Assembly: GCA_030141605.1 (NCBI GenBank)
Contig: JAQGDQ010000019.1
Coordinates: 558,001 to 622,000, forward strand
Origin: Tubiluchus corallicola
Taxonomy: Eukaryota; Animalia; Priapulida
DNA length: 64,000 nucleotides
Direction of reading: 5' to 3'
How positions within the stretch are numbered: position 1 is the stretch's first letter; each line of letters begins with the position of its first letter. The position numbers were made by a program, and so were the translations under genes. The notes beneath the pieces are model-generated. The model was not told the DNA's origin, did not search any database, and was given only the letters and a program-made list of their open reading frames with translations. This document shows positions 5,034 through 64,000 of the stretch, piece after piece.

Positions 5034-48792
<43,759 letters not shown>

Positions 48793-51478: not shown

Positions 51479-52069
51479 TAAGGCTGGCAATACGACTTCC
51501 TACCTTTAAAAAATACGTACTTGCAAAGTTGAATCGTACCGTGCTAATACGATAAAATATCGTACCGCAAGTGCGCGCCAAATTCCGTACCAGTTCATGT
51601 AGGATCTACATATTAGTGACATAAAATTAATTATAAAAAACGGTAATTTTATCAATTCTTATTATAAATTTATGCATATATAAAAATAGAACTGCCGTTT
51701 GAGCTTCCATACTAGTTATTTTAGGTTACAATAGTTACACAATTATTACAAAGTTAAATGACAACTGGCCCTACTAAACAACATGCCGCTTTTGCACCCA
51801 AAACGAACCAATCTAGCCGTTTTGTTTGCGTGTAATCTGTGCTAACTAAGGGAGAACAATAAGTCCCCATCCTTGAGCAAAACATCTCATAAAGTAGAGC
51901 AGCTGACCACGGAAACGTTACAAGAAGCTGAGCAAAAATAGTACGGAAAAAGTTCGATAAAGATACGGGAAGAGTACGAAAAAAATACCGTAATTCCGAA
52001 CCGTACCGTACTTCTGAAAAAATACCGTACCGTAATTCCGTACTGTACTTTTCAGAATTACCAGCCTTG
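51479..52069. mobile_element. Putative MITE with short TIRs and CCGTAC subterminal repeats, between RGS7 and galectin B
   Basis: AAGGCTGGCAAT ... ATTACCAGCCTT termini; many (C)CGTAC/GTACG motifs at 51515-51590 and 51940-52050; no TSD found. Confidence 0.5.
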
Positions 52070-52365
52070 CTGGTCGGTACGCTGACAGAGCAATACAATT
52101 CACGCGTATGTATGTATTCAAAACGGTTTAACGTGTAAATATAGGGATAACGAGGAGACAGCACTTAATTAACAATTACTGAGCACTTCAATTTTTGTAA
52201 AAAGAAGTTAACCGTATAATCCGCCTTATTTATGTAGGACAATTATCATGATAATGGCGCATTTAAGAAGCGATTTTCTGTATAAGACAAGTTACTGTCT
52301 CTAATGATGCTATTTAGAATGGTGAATTAATTCCTACGTAATTTATGCTGCAACTAAAAATTAGC

Positions 52366-52371
52366 TTTATT
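52366..52371 (-). terminator. Candidate polyadenylation signal (AATAAA) of galectin B
   Basis: Minus-strand AATAAA about 135 nt after the stop codon. Confidence 0.45.
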
Positions 52372-52504
52372 AATCAAAGCTTTCACAATTAAGAATTTTA
52401 AGATGGCATGATTATAAAAGCTTCGGTTCAAATCTTCTTGCAATAAAACTTCATCAGCAGTATTTTTTATGGTTATTAAAAGCGCTTGTATGATATGAAA
52501 TTAT

Positions 52505-52628
52505 TCATGCCACTAAAATTTGCCAGATTTCCACTTCGCCGTCAATTCGTATGTATCTCAGTTGGCACGGATGTTGGAAGCGATGAGCAAACGAAACAAA
52601 GTATCTGCCATTGACACCGACGTCGAAC
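52505..52628 (-). CDS. Galectin B exon 5: FDVGVNGRYFVSFAHRFQHPCQLRYIRIDGEVEIWQILVA*
   Basis: ctaccag acceptor, phase 2; typical galectin C-terminal strands (VNG..F..F.HR...I.G.V). Confidence 0.92.
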
Positions 52629-55600
52629 CTGGTAGCAAAAAAGAAGTACACTGTAAACAAAAACGCAACCGTTGCAATCTTCTTGCTCTCTTTTACAAAA
52701 TAGTGGGGATGTTGAAAATGATGAGATCAACGCTCGATCTAAATTATCATTAGTTAGAACTCTAGATCATAACCATTGTTTGGAAATGAGTCTCGATCTC
52801 GACTTCAGTTTCGATCTAAGGCCCATTTCACAGTGAGAACGCAAGGAAAATTGCGCAAGGAATTGCTGTCAGAAAATTTTCATAAAATTTCCGATTTTTC
52901 CTCGAAATCCCATACAGCAAGAAAGCTCAGTGCACAGTGAAACCCCGCCGTTTTTTCCACGCGTCCAGTTAGCTGCAGCAACTTTGCGGGTGTCAAGCAT
53001 AAGCTTTTTCTCGTCAACATGGACAACAAAGACGACGTCATGTTGTTAAAGAGTACTTATTATTATTACAATAGTATTAATTACCGTCGTTACTCGGTGC
53101 AATAAGTTAATGACACAAGACAGCACGGTGGTGGCGCTGCATCCTTGCATTTGAAAGACGGTCGTTGTTGCATTAATAAAATTGTCTGTCTTTGAAAAGA
53201 GAGATTAAATCTTAAAAGTTTTGTACTGAAATGTGTTAATTGTTGTTCGTTAAACAATAAAAAGTAATTGAGCAGTTAAATTTAATCTGAATTCCCTCAC
53301 AAAAATGGTGAACATGCATTATTTCTAAAAAGCTGCAATTTTCCTCGTGAGGCGGTCGCATAGCGAGGCGTCACTGAGAAGTGCGCCGTAGAAAATATTG
53401 TGTTCCATTTTCGTGAGGGATGCCGCATGAAATTTTTCCTGGAGGCATTTTGCTGCGCATCCTCACTGTGAAATGGGCCTAACAGTTACTTTGGATCTTA
53501 AGATGCGCACATACGACGTGCGAAGCATTATCTAGTTATTAATAAAATTATGTACTGACCTCTGTTTCTTGGTTAATTGTTTACTGTTTGAAAAAATAAT
53601 AATCCAATTTGAATAATTTGATAATAATCCAAAGAATGATGAGCGCAGCTTTTCTTATTGTATATTCTAGAACAAATGCAAACTCAGATTTACCCGCTAT
53701 TTGTTACTTTAATCTTTATCATGAAAAGTTGGCCCGGTTTGAAGGGGAAATAGGAAGCGCTCCTCTCCTCTGAGCCCCAATCAGCGCCTAATCTGGCATT
53801 CCTGACTACGATCTTCTCATCAAAGCGAGGGTTAAAGTGAAAGGCGATCGTGTTAGTTGGACTCTTGGGTCCTACTTGAATATTGATGAAAAATCTGTAA
53901 AATAAAAAAGTAAGAGTTCCACATCTCCAAATTATTAGCGAAACAACTTTGCGGGCACATTATCAATTCTTGTCAAGAAGTTTAGTCAAGAAACATCGTA
54001 CAGGAATTCGAATTAGCCAATTTCCCAATTTTTTTTTACAATTCACAATTATTAACTGCTAAAATAAACCGAAACCTTCAAATATCTGACTAAAATCGTA
54101 CACGTCTTAGACCGTCAATTGAATTCCCTGAAGATTTTTAAACCTTGCAGACCTCGTAGAATCCGTATATAGCTTTAGGCTGAAATTGTAATAATTGCCG
54201 CTGAAAGGTGAACAAATCTTCAACAGCGTTTAGGTTTGCATCTGTAGTTGAGAGGGACTCTAACCGCGAGATAAAAATTTTTCAATTTCCAATTTTTTAA
54301 TATTTGCTGGCTTGCAAGAACTTGTAAAACTGCCATTTAAATCGAAATGTTTGTGTACGCTGAGGTTGAGCCATTTGATAGACGGAGATTGCGTCGAAGA
54401 CAAAAAACAGAGTATTCTAATGCACCAATGTCCGGCGCACGCGCAGCAGTTAATAGAATATAATGCACACCACGCTATGCGCTACATTACTTTATGCTTG
54501 AAAAATCAGTAATCAACATGAGATTAGGAATCCATTCAATGCTGCAGTGCTAACGACATGCCAACAACTTGTTAGACTTTACCAGTCTAAAACAATACTC
54601 AAGCAACCGTACTACATAATAAAACATTACAAGTTTGCAGTATTAAAACACGCTCTGATGTAAGCCTAGTAAAAGGAATTATTAATGTATTTATTAGTGT
54701 CCGTATCCCATCCTGACGCAAAATCTAGTGGCACTGTCCTTTTTAGTGCAACACTGTGTGGTGGCGAATCAACTTGTGGTGCAACAGTCCACGTGTAGTG
54801 CAACACTATTGTGGAGGACTTTTACTGTAGTTACTGTAGTGTGTAATTCAAGTTTACTTTGACACGCAGCTTTTATACAAATCCAGTTGAGATTCGAAAA
54901 AAGGAATAGTGGTGCACCAGTACCCAGAGTTTATGTGAATTATGTGTAGAAAGACAACGACCTAAGAAATCAACATTATTTCATTTTGACTTTAGCGAAT
55001 AAAATTAACAAAAATTTAAAAATGCTCGTTGTCAAACGTATGTAAAGTCTCACCCATAACGGCCTGGGTTTTCAGATGGTCGTCCCAAGAAGTAAACTGC
55101 TTTTCCTGAGCAAAATCCATTTTGGGTTTGCGTTTCGAAGGGAAGGCCTGGCATCAATGCTGATTCTCTGACCTATAATTTATGTAAATATATTTTAATT
55201 GATAGTTTATGCATAGGCGATCAATATATCCAGCAAGGCAAAAACCAAGTTGTGTTGGCTATCGCTTATATGTGCATTCTCACAGGCATAGGATGCCTGC
55301 TTCTTTATTTGACGAAGAATATTTTGAAGCTATCCTTGGTTGTGACGGCTTCACATGTGTTCTACTGACTTAGTCTTGCAATAGCTGCGATATGTTAACT
55401 TCACACATTTTCGGAAACTATAGGGTCTTATAATCGGCGTACATTTTAATTAGCAATAATTACCATAATGTAGTAGAAAGAACTAAAAAGTGTTGGAAGA
55501 CTTGTGGAGGTGGGACCACTTTAAGAGATACAGGAAATTGGACTATGAAAAAATATGGAAAAAGACTAGTAGAGGTGAGGAACAGCATCCAAAGACGCGT

Positions 55601-57253
55601 GGAACTGTGTACGGAAAACAACCAAAGTCTAGTTTATAATTCAACACGCCCATCTTTCCTGCAATGGCGAACGTTTTGAAATACAGGCGTAACTTCACAG
55701 CTACGGTCGCTTTTATCGTTTTGGTATTTTTAGTTTGCAATCACCCGTTCATTTACTTTATGGCAATTTGTAATCTAATTGTCACTTGTATTTTTTGCGA
55801 CATAAAGTCAAAAAATCCAACGCGATCTTATTAATATACCTACCAGTACCAAACCGAATGTACTACAACAATTAAAACAGTGACCAACTCCAGCCAACTT
55901 AATTTAACCACTTCGAAAAACACACTACTCTGGCTGTAGTTGACGCTGGTCAAAAAGGGCTTGAGCATTTTTGAAACAGAACGTAAAATTGTTTAGTCAA
56001 CATATTCGTATGATTTCGCCAGGAAAACAATGAAATGACTCTTTTACAAGAAATGTTAGTTTTAGATGTAATTACATATACCTGCCAGTTGAGAAATTGC
56101 TCAAACACATTTCTAGGTATCGTATCTCCATCTTCTAGGGAATTATAGACAGTGGATGAAAACTCGGCATCATCGCTTTCTACGTGTTGATCAGATGGTA
56201 CCAAGTGAACAGCTGGATAAGATAATACAAAGAAGTGCGCTACAGGATGACAAACAACAGGAAAACTGGCAGAGCTGTTATTCGCGTAAAAAAGGGACGT
56301 ATACGTGCAATTTACGTGATACGAATAGCAGTTCATTTATTGAGTTAATCGCTTGCTAATTTATTCGATCTATAAATGGTTTGTTTCACCGTGATACTTT
56401 TCTCTTTCTCGTTGTTCAGTTTGTGTAATAAGATTTTATCAGTTTTTTAGTACTATGGCATCGTACAATTTTTTTTATAAAACAGACACATGGCAACGAA
56501 TAATAGTATTCTAAATGACATCCATGTAGTTGAGCAGAAAACTCAACAAGTTTTACGTTCCGGACTAGTTTTCTTTTCGTAAAGTGGGCCTATAAGTTGC
56601 AAGTGCGATTGTAAAGAATGAGCGGAATTTGTTAGGTATTTGATACTTTAAAGGGGGAGCGCGTTGACGGTCCAAGGTTCTTAAATTACCCTTTCTTTAA
56701 TAACCAAAGCCGAAAAAGCGTGAGTAAAATGAGAAGCATGTTTATAGGCAGAATACCGTACTTACATGTGTTTTAAATTGCCAAAAATTGCAATGTTTGC
56801 AAACACAAACAACATTAATAACAGTGCAACAAACAAACAATATTAATTAACGTGAGTATAAGCATTGATCAAAACTAATATATCAGTAAACCGTCTAACG
56901 TGGGTAATGCTCTGTGCTCTAAGACACAGTATCTACATATTACCAACGATTTAGTTTGGCAGAAGGCTTTTATAACATACGATATTCATAATATCTAAAA
57001 ATAAGTTAGGTACAAGTTTAAGATCACCCATGTCATGCAAGGTCAAATCTACCCATGAATGCGGCTTCAACGTGTTTAAAATCGCGACTGTTTTACACTT
57101 GCAACAGTTCGCGACAGCGAAAACTTAGCCGGTGAAAGAAACAAAAAATAGCTAGATTACATTTATAGAGAAATCTTTGCCATCAAACTTACCTGGTAAA
57201 GGCCATGCAATAACAGTCACTACAAGAAAGGAAAACACCACTAAAACATTCAT
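52505..57253 (-). CDS. Galectin B: single-CRD galectin with predicted signal peptide, 211 aa, 5 coding exons
   Basis: complement(join 57193-57253, 56082-56212, 55054-55172, 53694-53894, 52505-52628) = 636 nt, all GT-AG, same phases (1,0,2,2) as galectin A; IAFHFNPRFDEKIVVRNARLGADWGSEER. Confidence 0.9.
52820..53479. mobile_element. PIF/Harbinger-type (Tourist-like) MITE in the last intron of galectin B
   Basis: Perfect 18-bp TIRs GGCCCATTTCACAGTGAG / CTCACTGTGAAATGGGCC with degenerate extension; TAA on both flanks (52817-52819, 53480-53482); no ORF. Confidence 0.88.
53694..53894 (-). CDS. Galectin B exon 4 (sugar-binding exon)
   Basis: FFINIQVGPKSPTNTIAFHFNPRFDEKIVVRNARLGADWGSEERSASYFPFKPGQLFMIKIKVTNSG; 201 nt, same length as in galectin A. 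Confidence 0.96.
55054..55172 (-). CDS. Galectin B exon 3: VRESALMPGLPFETQTQNGFCSGKAVYFLGRPSENPGRYG
   Basis: ttatag acceptor, gtgaga donor; aligns with galectin A exon 3 (YFxGR...NPGxYG). Confidence 0.88.
56082..56212 (-). CDS. Galectin B exon 2 (acidic spacer): AVHLVPSDQHVESDDAEFSSTVYNSLEDGDTIPRNVFEQFLNWQ
   Basis: cttatccag acceptor, CAG|gtatat donor, phase 1-0; inside ORF 55950-56336. Confidence 0.8.
57193..57253 (-). CDS. Galectin B exon 1 (signal peptide): MNVLVVFSFLVVTVIAWPLP
   Basis: AAAATG start context, hydrophobic core, V-I-A cleavage motif, G|gtaagt donor. Confidence 0.82.
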
Positions 57254-57439
57254 TTTCTCTTCGCGTTTTGTAAATGCGTTTTCTCTTAATAAGCGCCAAG
57301 ACGTGTGTTTACAATATTTGCAATATCGGGATGCCTTTAAACTTGCTGAATGCATATAATAAATTAATAAATTTTACCCTGGCCAACACCTGTTTTGGAT
57401 GTCTTCTTGCGTTACACGTCCCGGATACAGAGCTGTTAC

Positions 57440-57445
57440 TTTATA
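57440..57445 (-). promoter_or_regulatory. Candidate TATA box of galectin B
   Basis: CCTATAAAG on the minus strand about 190 nt upstream of the ATG. Confidence 0.35.
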
Positions 57446-58679
57446 GGCTGGGATGTTGTTGTTTTGTTTGTTTGGAAAGGTGTAGCACAAAAGTCGAGAA
57501 GACAAGGATGCAGTATGCTTGCTTTATCGAATTAATTTAGCGTCTTTAAAAGTACCAAGTACAACACTTGCAAAGTTCAAATAATGACATCTGTCATGAT
57601 CTGTGAATCGTTGTGCGTTTGGACTCTACAGTATATTCTAAGATGTCCATATAACATGCCCACCAAATAAATATCTACATGTTGTAAACAAAGGACTTGA
57701 CTAAGCAAAAGACACCAAAATGACACTTAGCCAATGCAAAACGCAGAGGTGATACTGAGAATTTATTGCCATTTGTTAAATGTACGGGAACGAATATTAT
57801 TATTTGGTCATATTTTAATACACATACGTGCTTTGCGTATAGCTGCTAGCGATTTCATGAATGTTTTTCTTTGGCTATAGAAAATACAAAATCGCCTGGA
57901 TAAATACCCAAACTTTGTCATAACTATAATGATATGTTGAAAAGCATACGTAATAGCCATACATCATCTATGCATAGAAACAAGGAGTTAAAAACGGAAA
58001 ATAGATGAACTAAGCAATTATATGACCACGATAAAACGGAAAACACGCGCATTAATACTGACAAAAACTAATTACGTAACTCTAATTATGCAAATCCTTA
58101 TTAATTTGCGTTTATTAGAACAGTTTTAAAATCAGATACTCGTTGGTGCACATTGATTCACACAAAAGTAACACACTTAACCAGTATTTATTCGAGTGCA
58201 GGTGTTTGCATTTTTAATCGGTATCAATAGCAGTATGAAATATTATTATAAGCTTATAGTCAGAATAGAGGGTGGCCGTTCACGTATTATACGCGATTGC
58301 ACTTGATTATATCTCTGAAACAAAATTTTATCAAATATATTTTAGGTTCTATAGATCGGTCACATAATATAAACTCCTTTTCAATGCACCATGAAATGAG
58401 TTTAATATTTATAACCAATTAGTACACTATGAATAGCTTTACATATTACATATTACTTGTTAACCGAATGAAACTATTCATAGCAAAAACTACAAAATCA
58501 ATGACTTGAACATTGAATTTCAGTGAGGTTAAGCAGCTACTAAAATTATTTCTTGCTTATGGAGTTCATTCTAGTGTATGAAGCCTAGCATATAGCCTGA
58601 GTAATCTCATGTAAAATGAATCCCATCAAAAATTTCTTTTGACGTTTGTTTTACATTTTAAATTTTGTGTTAAAGATGA

Positions 58680-58872
58680 TCACTTGTCGCCTTTCCCTTC
58701 CGTTTTTTCTTCCACTCTTGTCTCGTCTTCCTCTCTACCTATAGGTGGACCATACTGAATGTATTTGTGAATGACCACATCGCCAGACATACGAATGACA
58801 AGGATGTCACATATGGGCGTGAACCGATACTGATAATCTATGAAGTGGTTTCCATCTATCGCGACAGAAAAC
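58680..58872 (-). CDS. Galectin A exon 5 (CRD end plus charged tail)
   Basis: ttgcag acceptor; FSVAIDGNHFIDYQYRFTPICDILVIRMSGDVVIHKYIQYGPPIGREEDETRVEEKTEGKGDK*. Confidence 0.92.
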
Positions 58873-61800
58873 CTGCAACAGACGGAAATATACATAAGTT
58901 TTATAAGTTCATTAATAATTGTACAGTTGATATGTCTTGTAAAAAATATTAATATGTGTCGTATCGCACATGACGCAACCCATTATTAAGGGAAACATAA
59001 CTGGCAGCCTGATATCATCGATAATTTTTGTAGACATCGTAACCCAAACAGAATTACACAGGACTTGTCGAAAACAGTCTGGTACCAAACTAGTATTCAA
59101 ACGATCAAACACAGTGGCCACATTTGCTTTTTGATGGGAGATTACCTCACGTTAAAAGACACGATTTAAAAACACGATACCTCTAACAGGACAGATTTCA
59201 GACAGTCAAGAAATTTTTACCCATGTAAGTTGGTCCCTGTAAAGAATCAACAACTATCTGACTCACTGCAAAACAACGAAATAGTGATTCATTGCTTGCT
59301 GATTCATTTTCGGCTTTAAAGCGCTTTATACCTGTGGATCATTAAGGGGCTGTGCAAATAAGCCTTTTCAAGGTTAATAGGCTACCATACTTCTTCCTTA
59401 TCTCTGCAGATCTTTCCACGGTCTTACGTACTTGTCCTCAAGCATGTCAATTTCCAATACAAATTCCTGTCCCGGTTCGAATGGAAACCACATAGCCTGT
59501 CTCTCTTCAGGACCCCATTCTGGACCTAGACGTGAATTTCGCACTGTGATGCGCTCCTCGAATCGAGGATTAAAGTGAAATGCAATAGTGTTGTCAGGAG
59601 ACTTGTTGTCAACTTGAAAGTTAATGAAGAACCTGAAAGATTTATACTTGTAAATATATATTAGCACGTACATATTCACATACACTGTCGCGCACATGTA
59701 TGCACCATAATACACCTAAAACAGTCACATATATTACCAAATAAATAGCCTGCTGGAACGAGTGCGCAAGGCCACTTTGAGAGGTTAGAGAAAAACAAAA
59801 TTTGTTCTTTGATTTTGAGTATTATTATTTTTTCAAATAAAACATACCTCAGACAGTCCCGAGATGGATCATTTTGTTTGTTTACTTTATTTATTTATTT
59901 ATTTATTTTTAAAACCAAAGTCTTCGTGCGCTTATTTTAAAAAATCACTTGAGAACAGACTTTTGCAAAAAGCATTAATGAGCCACCTTTGTATTTTCCG
60001 TCACTTTTAATTATAATTTTAATGTAATGTCATTAAATGAGGTTAAGTAATGACAAATTCTAAAACTTGATGCATTGTTTAAATTTAGCAAGTTGGACTC
60101 TGCGTTTTTGCGTGTGGCGCGATGATATGCTTGTCTTTTATATGGTTTCAGAGGAGACTTCCCAACTTCTACACACAGAAATATAAAGAAGTGATTAGTA
60201 TGTCCTACTGGTCTGAAATTCGCTAAAATGTGACTTAGGTGCCTGCTCCAGCATGCAGGCTTTTCAATTATTACAGACAAAAATAACGAAGTTTTAAGAT
60301 ACATCATTTCAATACGATACCTAATAGATGGGATGTGAATTACAATGTATCTAGACACTTCTGCAGCGTGTCAAACCGCAAATGATTCAATTCCTGTACT
60401 TTTTTACTAATGTAGTTAGTGATTCTGTACTTCTGCATTTCTCCCTTATGTTCTTTCTGCTGTGCTTTAATATGTACTTGTATCCTTTTCAGTGTGATCA
60501 TTTTTATGCGTTAATAATATAAACTAAAAACGCCAAAAAAATTAGTGAAGTAGTTCCTTGTAATTTTTTTCTCTTTTTGTGCACCCGAAGAATTACAGTG
60601 CTAGTTCGAAACGTTGTATCGTTTCTCTTTTTCCTTGTTTTTAAATTGTGGGATTTTATATTCATTCCCACTGTTTATTCAGATAGAACTTAGAATGACT
60701 GTGTAATTATAATTTCAGCGTAATTTTCGCATTTTACATAATTATTATTATATACACTGTTTCAAATATTCGCTATACGTATACTCACATACAATTACAT
60801 ACTCATGGTGAGTAGATAGTGTGCATCAAAATTACTCCCTCTGCCTATTTGTGTTTAGTTGACCAAACAGTGTATGATCATATTGATCTTGTATGAATTT
60901 ATATGAGCTAAAAATCTTCAGAGACAGTGGTATACTAATAATAAATTTAAAAAATTATTAAAGCAAAGGTTATCCAGAAATATTAAATGCGATAAGCAAG
61001 GATGGTTCTGCGTAATATACTGATCATGAATGTGTTGGCCTAAAATTATTAATTGCGCAATTCGATTTAAAGTTATAGCAAAAATAGGTACCTACCCATA
61101 AAATCCTGGATTTTATGGGTATACTAATAATAAATTTAAAAAATTATTAAAGCAAAGGTTATCCAGAAATATTAAATGCGATAAGCAAGGATGGTTCTGC
61201 GTAATATACTGATCATGAATGTGTTGGCCTAAAATTATTAATTGCGCAATTCGATTTAAAGTTATAGCAAAAATAGGTACCTACCCATAAAATCCTGGAT
61301 TGTCGACCACTCTGCCTTCAAAGTAAAACGTCGTACCCTCCTTTCCGCCTCCATAAATTTCATGTTCATGAGGGAGATCTGGATTACTCAAAGGCGGAAT
61401 CGGGTACATAGGCCTCTGTAAATGCGTGCAAGTAAAGTCACAATGAATTTGTGTATAACAATGCTAATATTGTGTCATTTTGATTATTAAAATTTCGTTC
61501 TGTATGGGTAAACCTTATCCACAAATAACTGTTCCATAACCCCATACACGAAATCTTTAAAATAGTAAGCTGTGTAAAAATTTATAAACCACAAAAGCTT
61601 TCACTTTGCTTATACAAGTAAGCGCCTCATACTTACTACAGATTTCAACTTCTCATCGTAAACGTAAGCAACGACGTCTGCTAGATCATACGCCTCAGCT
61701 ATAAGAGATGAAATCGAAACTATAAATTATTTATATTGCAATTATGAAACCAATTTAAGTACTAATTGTAGTTAATAATTATTATTACTTCTAACTCAAT

Positions 61801-62871
61801 ACGCACGTTTTGCTTTATGGACTGCTTATTCATTTATTTTTGGAGTGCCATTTTACAAACAGTACAAGTGTTTACATGGTGTCACAAAGACTAATTATCG
61901 TCAATGATGAATTAAAGCTTGCTTCTAAAATACTTTCGAAACAAATAGCACATCCCAGAAAAGTAAGTCTATTATTCTTGCGAGCTTTCTTGATACCAAC
62001 GTTAAATTTATTCAGATTTAACTTGTAACATAATGAAGCGAACTAAAAATATAACTTTTAAAAATATTGGATGCTGTTTAATGTACGCGGGTTATAGCAT
62101 GGCTCAGTCAAAGCGTTTTCTCACAATAAGCTCCAAAATTAATCTTCAGAAATGTTTGCGTTTCATACAACTTATGATGCTCGTTTCCCTGTCTACAAAA
62201 TAGTGGACCCACAGAAACTAGTGCAGTTTTGAAAACACGCATAGTACCGGCACCTGCTCTACATGCATGCATAGTACGGGCACCAGCTCTACGAGCACGC
62301 AAAGTACGGGCACCAGCTCTACATGCATGCATAGTACGGGCACCAGCTCTACGAGCACGCAAAGTACGGGCACCAGCTCTACATGCACGCATAATACGGG
62401 CACCAGCTCTACGTGCACGCATAATACGGGCACCAGCTCTACGTGCACGCATAGTACGGATACCAGCTCTACCTGCACGCATAATAAGGGCACCAGCTCT
62501 ACGTGCACTAACGTTATGATACAATTAACAAAAAGTTACATTGGAACTCGCTGAAATTTTTTGATGCTTACATGTACATGTATTATCGAAATATTTTTGC
62601 AAATAAACTATTATAAGAATTCAGTGTGGTTATTTTACCTCTAATCAGACAAGGGTGGGCCAGGAACGTCTAAGACGCAATACGCGTGTAATAATTAGGA
62701 CTAATAACTAGACTAGCAATAGAAGAATATAACGCGTTATTTTTTCTTTATTTTTATTTGTGATAAACTAATGCAAAAATACTGATACTCACACTCTATC
62801 TCTTTTCTTGTTACTGGCTTAGCCGAAGTTAAAGCAATAGCAGCCAATACGACAACCCATTGAAGTTTCAT
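58680..62871 (-). CDS. Galectin A: single-CRD galectin with predicted signal peptide, 221 aa, 5 coding exons
   Basis: complement(join 62793-62871, 61637-61698, 61285-61415, 59432-59632, 58680-58872) = 666 nt, all GT-AG, phases 1,0,2,2. Protein MKLQWVVVLAAIALTSA-KPV...IAFHFNPRFEERITVRNSRLGPEWGPEER...FSVAIDGNHFIDYQYR...GDVVI. Confidence 0.9.
59432..59632 (-). CDS. Galectin A exon 4 (sugar-binding exon)
   Basis: HFNPRF...VRNS...WGPEER; tttcag acceptor, gtacgt donor; inside ORF 59398-59715. Confidence 0.96.
60929..61301. repeat. Tandem duplication (184-bp copies, 189-bp period) including the galectin A exon 3 donor site
   Basis: 60929-61112 appears identical to 61118-61301. Confidence 0.93.
61285..61415 (-). 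CDS. Galectin A exon 3: RPMYPIPPLSNPDLPHEHEIYGGGKEGTTFYFEGRVVDNPGFYG
   Basis: tttacag acceptor, gtaggt donor; galectin N-terminal strand pattern (P-x-LP...GG...G...G). Confidence 0.88.
61637..61698 (-). CDS. Galectin A exon 2 (spacer): SEAYDLADVVAYVYDEKLKSV
   Basis: cttatag acceptor, gtaagt donor, phase 1-0 links exons 1 and 3. Confidence 0.8.
62236..62508. repeat. 30-bp minisatellite, ~9 copies, in galectin A intron 1
   Basis: Unit ~CACGCATAGTACGGGCACCAGCTCTACGTG. Confidence 0.96.
62793..62871 (-). CDS. Galectin A exon 1 (signal peptide): MKLQWVVVLAAIALTSAKPVTRKEIE
   Basis: ATG, basic n-region, hydrophobic h-region, T-S-A cleavage motif, gtgagt donor. Confidence 0.82.
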
Positions 62872-64000
62872 ATTTTCATCCAAACAGTCACTTACAAATG
62901 GGCAAATACTTATTGCTATTGGTACAGTTAGGATCGTCAGAATATGCCGAGACCGAAATGGAACTCCTTCAAAAACTTTCTCTTATTTTATGAGTGATAC
63001 TTTGCTGATTAAAAACATAATTATCTAACACTGTCTTTAAACACCTGCTAGATTCACATGCCTCATATCATTTTTCATGTCGGACTATGTGAAAATAGGG
63101 GGTTGTTGGTTACTAAACATACAAGACATATCCTAAGTATGACATAAGAAGCTTGTACACTAATAATGTTTCGCGGCTGGTCTTGGCATAATCCCTCAAA
63201 TATGTAGTACAAACAACTGTGCAATTTTTGCAACCTGCTAAACACAAAACGTGTAGTTTTTACAAGATTAATTATCTCGAATGTGTAATTTACCAAATTC
63301 GTCATCTCAGATGCATAATTTCCAAAAATGTACATTCACTCTTCAATGCTATACTGTTGTGTTATGCTAATAACTGAAACCGCTAAAATGCGAGACTGTT
63401 AGGGGAATAACATAGATTCAAATTCTGTGGGCGTACGGCTGTATCTGAACTGTGGGAAACAACAAAGAAGAAATACAAAGCCCAGAAGATTACGGCTGCG
63501 TCACTATGCAATTCAAATGCAGACTACCTTACAAAGCTTCCGAATCAGTTATGTGGTTCTTTCACATTTGCTATCTTTGTTAATGCATGCATATTACATG
63601 CAAATATTGCCACGTGCCTCAAGCACAAAAAAACGTTCATTAAGTAATGAAGCGATACTGTGTATAAAACTAGCTGCCTAATAGTATAGCAGTTATTAAA
63701 AAGTTAAATCACAATAAATATAATTGTATAATTTCATATTTTAATAACATCTTCATTCATGATCGGTTATAACATTTTATAATGCACAAAAACACTGTAT
63801 TAAAGAAATTATAATCGCAATGCTACTTTTAAGTACAAAATGACATTCACACAGTCAGACAAACACACCTAATACTCTAACAACAAATCTTAACTTTTAG
63901 AATTCACCTTGTAACTGATATCAATTACACACACAGATAATTTAGAAATCTACTACAGTTCTATACATCATAATCATCATCTTCAGTGACTGCTTGCTTT

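What the first reader, a model, noticed from the sequence alone, without database searches (positions are those of the whole stretch)
52505..62871. Tandem pair of galectins with classical signal peptides: a candidate ER-secreted galectin subfamily
Seen: two head-to-tail minus-strand genes with the same 5-exon layout and intron phases (1,0,2,2). Exon 1 is a signal peptide (MKLQWVVVLAAIALTSA; MNVLVVFSFLVVTVIA), exon 2 an acidic spacer, and exons 3-5 one CRD with all canonical residues (H-x-N-x-R, N, W-x-x-E-x-R). The 201-nt core exons align without gaps at about 43/68 identical residues (hand count). Established: galectins are typically leaderless cytosolic proteins exported unconventionally, and signal-peptide forms are reported only as exceptions in some invertebrates. 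Inference: the leader is kept in two well-diverged paralogues with dissimilar leader sequences, so ER-Golgi secretion looks selected; these may be mucus, gland or immune lectins.
Basis: partly seen in the sequence, partly recalled or inferred. Interest (0 to 1): 0.85.

Follow-up and report, generated by a model that had tools for sequence, protein, structure and literature searches.

The report
Priapulid galectins with export leaders
Two neighbouring sugar-binding galectin genes, likely from a priapulid worm, each start with an exon predicted to encode an ordinary export signal, and their closest database relative, from Priapulus caudatus, has a similar leader, so this lineage likely sends these normally leaderless lectins out through the standard secretory route, an exception already reported for sponges and nematodes.

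Summary
Two head-to-tail minus-strand genes each give an open five-exon frame (GT-AG, phases 1,0,2,2), with a hydrophobic leader and one galectin domain carrying all eight canonical residues. Leader-like exons are rare in this window (2 in 116 kb), yet one sits before each domain. The neighbouring RGS7 gene is 91% identical to Priapulus caudatus RGS7, so the animal is likely a priapulid other than that species. The best galectin relative is a P. caudatus single-domain galectin with its own, weaker, hydrophobic leader. It likely lies on the same scaffold as RGS7 and groups with both genes (98/86 after one long branch is dropped). Not shown: no RNA joins exons 1-3, SignalP was unavailable, gene A's first intron is ambiguous, and an in-frame Met in exon 3 allows leaderless forms. 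The mucus, gland or immune role is untested. Signal-peptide galectins are published for sponges (cleavage confirmed by Edman sequencing) and nematodes; I found none for priapulids. No earlier report of this feature turned up in the scan's index. Verdict: a likely real, lineage-specific clade of a known exception.

The parts
62793..62871 (-). Gene A exon 1: start codon and predicted signal peptide (cut likely after residue 15-17); donor weak; alternative phase-0 donor at 62815
61637..61698 (-). Gene A exon 2, spacer; better-scoring in-frame acceptor at 61719; donor ranks 1 of 196 in the interval
61285..61415 (-). Gene A exon 3: start of the galectin domain, with an in-frame Met (residue 50)
   Evidence: (similar to the P. 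caudatus protein; 0 of 2000 shuffles reach the score)
59432..59632 (-). Gene A exon 4, 201 nt core with H-x-N-x-R, V, N, W-x-x-E-x-R; one N-K-S sequon followed by Pro
58680..58872 (-). Gene A exon 5: end of the domain, charged tail of about 22 residues, stop; weak internal phase-1 donor at 58739
57193..57253 (-). Gene B exon 1: start codon and predicted signal peptide (cut likely after residue 16); donor ranks 1 of 228 in the interval
56082..56212 (-). Gene B exon 2, acidic spacer; ranks 1 of 96 candidate phase-1-to-0 exons
55054..55172 (-). Gene B exon 3: start of the galectin domain, with an in-frame Met (residue 71)
53694..53894 (-). Gene B exon 4, 201 nt core with all canonical residues
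52505..52628 (-). Gene B exon 5: end of the domain and stop; AATAAA 133 nt downstream
5034..48792 (+). Context, not part of the finding: RGS7 gene (15 coding exons found; the first was not located), tail-to-tail with gene B 3.7 kb away; gives the lineage and the likely synteny

Best explanation
These are two tandem single-domain galectin genes with intact sugar-binding residues, likely of a priapulid worm, whose first exons are predicted to encode signal peptides that would send the proteins through the ER and Golgi to be secreted as beta-galactoside-binding lectins. Shown by the sequence: open five-exon frames, hydrophobic leaders with small residues at -3 and -1, all eight binding residues. 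Inferred steps: exons 1-2 are spliced to exons 3-5; the leader is cut after residue 15-17 (A) or 16 (B), leaving a variable spacer of about 30-50 residues before the domain; the leader was in place before this lineage split from Priapulus caudatus and was carried through the local duplication; the domain drifted (38-50% identity between the three) while a hydrophobic leader was kept. The most likely job is binding galactose-bearing glycans outside the cell, on microbes or body-surface and matrix glycoproteins; this is inferred from the family and untested.
For: Open frames, GT-AG introns and the same phases in both genes. With splice matrices trained only on the 13 RGS7 introns: B exon 1 donor 1 of 228, A exon 2 donor 1 of 196, B exon 2 1 of 96 candidates. 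Both start codons have A at -3. Best relative of both proteins among 157 galectin hits is P0072, P. caudatus XP_014665050.1, 181 aa, one domain, hydrophobic N-terminus. It is one of only 3 of 145 Met-initiated hits that pass the leader rule at threshold 2.0. P. caudatus RGS7 is XP_014665053.1; both records give a contig of 388,335 bases, so they likely share a scaffold as the genes do here. A, B, P0072 and P0077 form one branch at 98/86 in a 47-row tree. Precedent for real cleavage of a galectin leader: sponge hRTL (PMC11433124, passages).
Against: No transcript evidence could be obtained. SignalP was not available; my rule is a heuristic whose thresholds I set after seeing the two leaders. 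P0072 scores 2.27, just under the 2.3 used for the window, has two His in its hydrophobic stretch, and is an automatic prediction. A strong donor lies 25 nt upstream of A's start codon (62896, score 6.3) and a three-codon upstream frame overlaps that start. Leaders and spacers show no sequence similarity between the three proteins (for spacers). Clade support falls to 71/99 with the long branch P0094_2 inside, and FastTree adds P0125_2.
Confidence: 0.72

Rival explanations
1. Dual routing: each gene makes both a leader-bearing secreted form and a leaderless cytosolic form that starts at the Met at the front of exon 3, through another first exon, the donor upstream of A's start codon, or leaky scanning.
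For: All three proteins have an in-frame Met just before the domain (A 50, B 71, P0072 19 and 27). A donor scoring 6.3 lies at 62896, upstream of A's start, and would skip the leader. A short upstream frame at 62879 overlaps A's start codon.
Against: The transcription start is unknown, so 62896 may not be transcribed. No equivalent was looked for in B beyond the donor ranking, where exon 1's own donor is first. A's internal Met has C at -3.
Confidence: 0.12
2. One tandem-repeat galectin: A's last exon is spliced early, at the phase-1 donor 58739, onto B's exon 2, which then serves as the linker between two domains behind A's leader.
For: The donor is in the phase that B's exon 2 accepts. Tandem-repeat galectins are the usual invertebrate form (PMC10343441 section 3.3; PMC8878817 passages).
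Against: The donor is weak (top 21%). B has its own leader exon with the best donor of its interval. A has a stop and polyadenylation hexamers at +273 to +563. The P. caudatus relative is modelled with one domain. The product would still carry a leader.
Confidence: 0.08
3. The genes are ordinary leaderless galectins and exons 1-2 are chance hydrophobic frames in AT-rich DNA.
For: No transcripts were found; exons 1-2 have no Pfam match of note and no similarity to each other; A's intron 1 is weak.
Against: Joint chance of a passing exon in both intervals is about 0.003 by my rule (0.044 x 0.059), before asking for matching phases. The likely orthologue also has a hydrophobic start.
Confidence: 0.08

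Closest known systems
Priapulus caudatus 'galectin-5-like' XP_014665050.1 (P0072), an automatic RefSeq prediction
   Same: One domain, hydrophobic N-terminus, H-x-N-x-R and W-x-x-E-x-R kept; best hit for both genes (45% and 38% over the domain); likely on the RGS7 scaffold; same branch.
   Different: Much shorter spacer (about 12 residues), weaker leader, Ile for the canonical Val; exon layout not visible to me; whether a second copy lies among the two unseen accessions between it and RGS7 is unknown. I found no paper on it.
Sponge signal-peptide galectins: Chondrilla australiensis hRTL-P1 to P6, Geodia cydonium galectin, three Amphimedon queenslandica galectins
   Same: Single domain behind a classical signal peptide; for hRTL the predicted cut matched the Edman N-terminus (PMC11433124 passages; PMC10343441 section 3.3; PMC13084444 passages).
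   Different: The Amphimedon genes are single-exon; here the domain has the three-exon bilaterian layout with a long middle exon, plus two upstream exons and a spacer. Different phylum; relationship not tested, as no row known to be a sponge was in my trees.
Nematode signal-peptide galectins (six in Caenorhabditis elegans, eleven in Strongyloides ratti, as cited in PMC11433124)
   Same: Ecdysozoan galectins with a leader. One Meloidogyne hapla multi-domain hit (P0135) passed my leader rule.
   Different: I saw only the citing sentence, not the primary papers. P0135 has several domains and was left out of the trees by the length filter, so common origin is untested.
Typical bilaterian galectins (human galectin-3, -4, -8, -9; PF00337)
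   Same: Sequence signature and best solved-structure matches (59 PDB sequences at E below 1e-10); domain split over three exons.
   Different: They have no leader and leave the cell by non-classical routes; fig wasp galectins and Anopheles Agalectin also lack one.

Membership tests
Galectins (PF00337) | Domain similar in sequence to the galectin carbohydrate-recognition domain | tested here: met
   Exons 4 pass Pfam's cut-off on their own (62.8 and 67.1 bits vs 22.1); exons 5 also hit; PDB hits are galectins.
Galectins (PF00337) | Eight binding residues His44, Asn46, Arg48, Val59, Asn61, Trp68, Glu71, Arg73 (list from PMC5297725) | tested here: met
   8 of 8 in A and in B; 7 of 8 in P0072, which has Ile for Val.
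Galectins (PF00337) | Beta-sandwich fold | tested here: inconclusive
   The spliced proteins could not be folded. The Atlas model of P0072 (pTM 0.78) matches galectin models at TM 0.77; my single-sequence fold of P0072 failed (pLDDT 31).
Galectins (PF00337) | Binds beta-galactosides | not testable with these tools
   Needs a binding assay. Agalectin shows that a galectin can fail to bind on an array (PMC4160252 passages).
Typical leaderless galectins | No signal peptide; cytosolic synthesis | tested here: not met
   Both models begin with a hydrophobic leader that passes a heuristic rule. This is a common trait, not a defining one, since sponge and nematode members have leaders.
Signal-peptide galectins (sponge and nematode type) | Classical N-terminal signal peptide predicted on the same transcript as the domain | tested here: inconclusive
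   Tripartite pattern met and above chance; splicing to the domain not shown; SignalP not available.
Signal-peptide galectins (sponge and nematode type) | Leader cleaved, protein secreted through ER and Golgi | not testable with these tools
   Needs expression or proteomics.
Tandem-repeat galectins | Two domains in one polypeptide | tested here: inconclusive
   Each gene has its own start exon and stop, but a weak in-phase donor at 58739 leaves read-through possible.

The most novel reading that the evidence does not exclude
Priapulids carry an old, locus-fixed clade of galectins that gained a signal peptide on their own by recruiting upstream exons while keeping the old start Met, so one gene can switch the same lectin domain between the cytosol and the ER-Golgi route: a natural test of why most galectins stay leaderless.
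Probability: 0.12. Interest if true: 0.6.

Novelty: new member of a known kind. Interest (0 to 1): 0.33.

Why it matters
Why most galectins avoid the ER is an open question that has been probed by adding leaders to human galectins (Kutzner et al. 2020; I saw only its title in reference lists). Natural leader-bearing galectins are the complementary experiment. A priapulid clade would add a third phylum to the two named in PMC11433124. It keeps a full binding site and the bilaterian exon layout, so it can be compared directly with leaderless relatives. With nematodes it raises the testable question whether leaders arose once or several times in ecdysozoans. It does not change the rule for vertebrates and gives no new mechanism.

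Tried and rejected
No whole genome is held, so other family members and the transcription starts could not be searched.

RNA: no RNA holder listed. X1 contigs cover introns and exons alike and show no joint at any exon border; X2 laid 1 contig, on a repeat. This is no evidence either way. Depth peaks of X1 in A's exons 4-5 came from three short partial matches (18-49 letters), not from paralogues.

Sequon avoidance as a sign of ER passage: inconclusive. 112 of 244 other domains (after a 60% identity filter of 301) carry a sequon, against 1 of 3 here.

A disulphide between B's Cys85 and Cys192: only B, of 302 rows, has both, but the columns do not covary (rank 85 of 134; Fisher p 0.13). Not claimed.

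Single-sequence fold of P0072 failed. The first full tree timed out. The word-based search with P0072 found only itself among 17 candidates; the search with A's exon 4 found 7 distant galectins among 14 candidates, led by a tunicate protein, a false lead on lineage. The promoter scan is bacterial and says nothing here.

Supplementary Table 2 of PMC10343441 (SignalP predictions across galectins) could not be read; it may list more leader-bearing galectins. Passages of PMC7852208, PMC2675706, PMC5437397, PMC8226959 and PMC8460509 gave nothing on galectin leaders.
Full report
Observation. I read 52000-63999 and rebuilt both models. Gene A has exons at 62871-62793, 61698-61637, 61415-61285, 59632-59432 and 58872-58680 (221 aa). 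Gene B has exons at 57253-57193, 56212-56082, 55172-55054, 53894-53694 and 52628-52505 (211 aa). All eight introns are GT-AG, both genes have phases 1,0,2,2, and both frames are open. The 201-nt core exons match at 42 of 66 whole codons, 43 of 68 with the split codons. Identity by codon position is 42, 54 and 24 of 66, and the only strong DNA similarity between the two regions is this exon. Pfam assigns exons 4 and 5 to PF00337. A profile of the two core exons hits 59 PDB sequences at E below 1e-10, galectins and one viral fibre protein entry. All eight canonical residues (list from PMC5297725, passages) are present. A galectin profile finds six exons in the window and no others.

Are exons 1-2 real? 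No transcript was available (see Tried and rejected), so I used three indirect tests. First, a null for leaders: ATG frames with a hydrophobic stretch (11-residue mean at least 2.3, no charge), a small-residue cut site and a following donor. I set the thresholds after seeing the leaders, so the joint figure of about 0.003 is optimistic. At the stricter donor cut-off B passes and A does not. Second, splice matrices trained only on the 13 introns of the neighbouring RGS7 gene. B's exon 1 donor ranks 1 of 228 in its interval and A's exon 2 donor 1 of 196. Third, enumeration of all open phase-1-to-0 exons: B's exon 2 is 1 of 96; A's is 5 of 99, and the top candidate is the same exon with an acceptor 21 nt upstream. 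So B's model is well supported, and A's leader is likely but its first intron is uncertain.

Which animal? An RGS7 gene fills 5034-48792 on the plus strand and ends 3.7 kb from gene B. One of its exons has its highest identity (97%) to Priapulus caudatus RGS7 among the 120 of 218 hits listed. The 422 residues joined from 14 exons are identical to it at 385. In a tree with 20 named RGS7 proteins that I chose from the hits, the two are sisters at 100/100. The animal is therefore likely a priapulid other than P. caudatus; no other scalidophoran was in the comparison. Two earlier notes on this genome also named Priapulus as closest; I take them as leads only.

Relatives. A profile search of 1.84 billion representatives gave 1664 hits, of which I saw the best 150; the ranking favours multi-domain proteins, so other single-domain relatives may be hidden. 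Among these and 7 earlier hits, the best match to both proteins is P0072, P. caudatus XP_014665050.1, 181 aa, one domain, hydrophobic N-terminus. P. caudatus RGS7 is XP_014665053.1, and both records give a 388,335-base contig. I infer a shared scaffold and hence orthology by position; I could not view it. Of 145 Met-initiated hits among the 157, 1 passes the leader rule at 2.3 (P0135, Meloidogyne hapla) and 3 at 2.0 (adding P0072 at 2.27 and a Lutzomyia protein). P0077, an unnamed exon-only frame 60% identical to B's core exon, is a further likely member. Trees used domains of at least 105 residues from proteins under 700 aa (301 domains plus P0077). FastTree on all rows groups A, B, P0072, P0077 and P0125_2 at 94. 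IQ-TREE on 48 rows (the 40 best by BLAST plus 8 chosen) gives 71/99 with the long branch P0094_2 inside; without that row the four form a branch at 98/86, with A and B sisters at 92/72. The duplication thus likely followed the split from P. caudatus, with modest support.

Mechanism. Shown: open frames, leaders, intact binding residues. Inferred: splicing as modelled; ER entry and cleavage after residue 15-17 (A) or 16 (B), giving mature proteins of about 204 and 195 residues; secretion; binding of beta-galactosides outside the cell. The spacers are unrelated in sequence, only B's is clearly acidic, and the Priapulus one is short, so they are likely flexible and weakly constrained. Two side tests for ER adaptation, sequon loss and a cysteine pair in B, were inconclusive or negative. 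All three proteins keep a Met just before the domain; A has a strong donor upstream of its start and an overlapping three-codon upstream frame. Leaderless isoforms are therefore possible. A weak in-phase donor at 58739 leaves a two-domain read-through product open.

What is known. Reviews state that galectins lack signal peptides (PMC11934519, PMC8497297, PMC13241506; passages), as do surveys of rotifers, fig wasps and an Anopheles galectin (PMC8878817, PMC8702095, PMC4160252; passages). Exceptions are in print. PMC10343441 (section 3.3 read whole; its SignalP table could not be read) reports three single-exon, single-domain Amphimedon galectins with signal peptides and describes the long-middle-exon layout that these genes appear to share. 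PMC11433124 (passages) shows six sponge galectins with leaders, cleavage confirmed by Edman sequencing, and cites six C. elegans and eleven Strongyloides cases. PMC13084444 (passages) agrees. A search for 'galectin' with 'priapul' gave 2 papers, on an annelid and a prawn, seen as listings only. Seven further searches listed no title on a priapulid case, and one more sought the Kutzner paper; the library lacks most subscription journals. I recall a report of a leader on silkworm BmGalectin-4 but could not check it. The scan's index holds no earlier finding with all the search words and no look-alike of P0072.

Verdict. The finding is a likely real priapulid clade of signal-peptide galectins: a new member of a known exception, worth a modest score until transcripts and secretion are shown.

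Noticed in passing
window 60929-61301: A perfect 189-bp tandem duplication (2 copies, 100% match) repeats the last 17 nt of A's exon 3 and its donor inside intron 3. The second donor cannot be reached in frame. Very recent event or assembly artefact.
   Followed up: partly
window 62236-62508: 30-bp minisatellite, 9.1 copies, in intron 1 of gene A.
   Followed up: no
window 62868-62879 and 62890-62896, minus strand: A three-codon upstream frame whose stop overlaps gene A's start codon, and a GTAAGT donor 25 nt upstream of that start; either could lower use of the leader.
   Followed up: partly
window 5034-48792, plus strand: Intact RGS7 gene, 91% identical to the Priapulus caudatus protein, tail-to-tail with the galectins; likely conserved linkage.
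   Followed up: yes
window 35109-37721, plus strand: Two long in-frame ORFs (425 and 444 aa, one stop between) in an RGS7 intron that look like the endonuclease and reverse transcriptase of a non-LTR retrotransposon (the label is from recall, not searched).
   Followed up: no
window 52768-53535, 56608-57100, 60064-60831: Intronic stretches on which many divergent X1 contigs pile up: likely interspersed repeats inside both galectin genes.
   Followed up: no
gene B, exons 3 and 5 (Cys85, Cys192); gene A exon 5 (Cys179): B is the only one of 302 domains with Cys at both columns, and A shares the second; covariation gave no sign of contact.
   Followed up: partly
P0135 (Meloidogyne hapla KAL7078373.1) and P0094 (Lutzomyia longipalpis): Multi-domain galectins with leader-like N-termini by my rule; leader-bearing galectins may be commoner in ecdysozoans than reported.
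   Followed up: no
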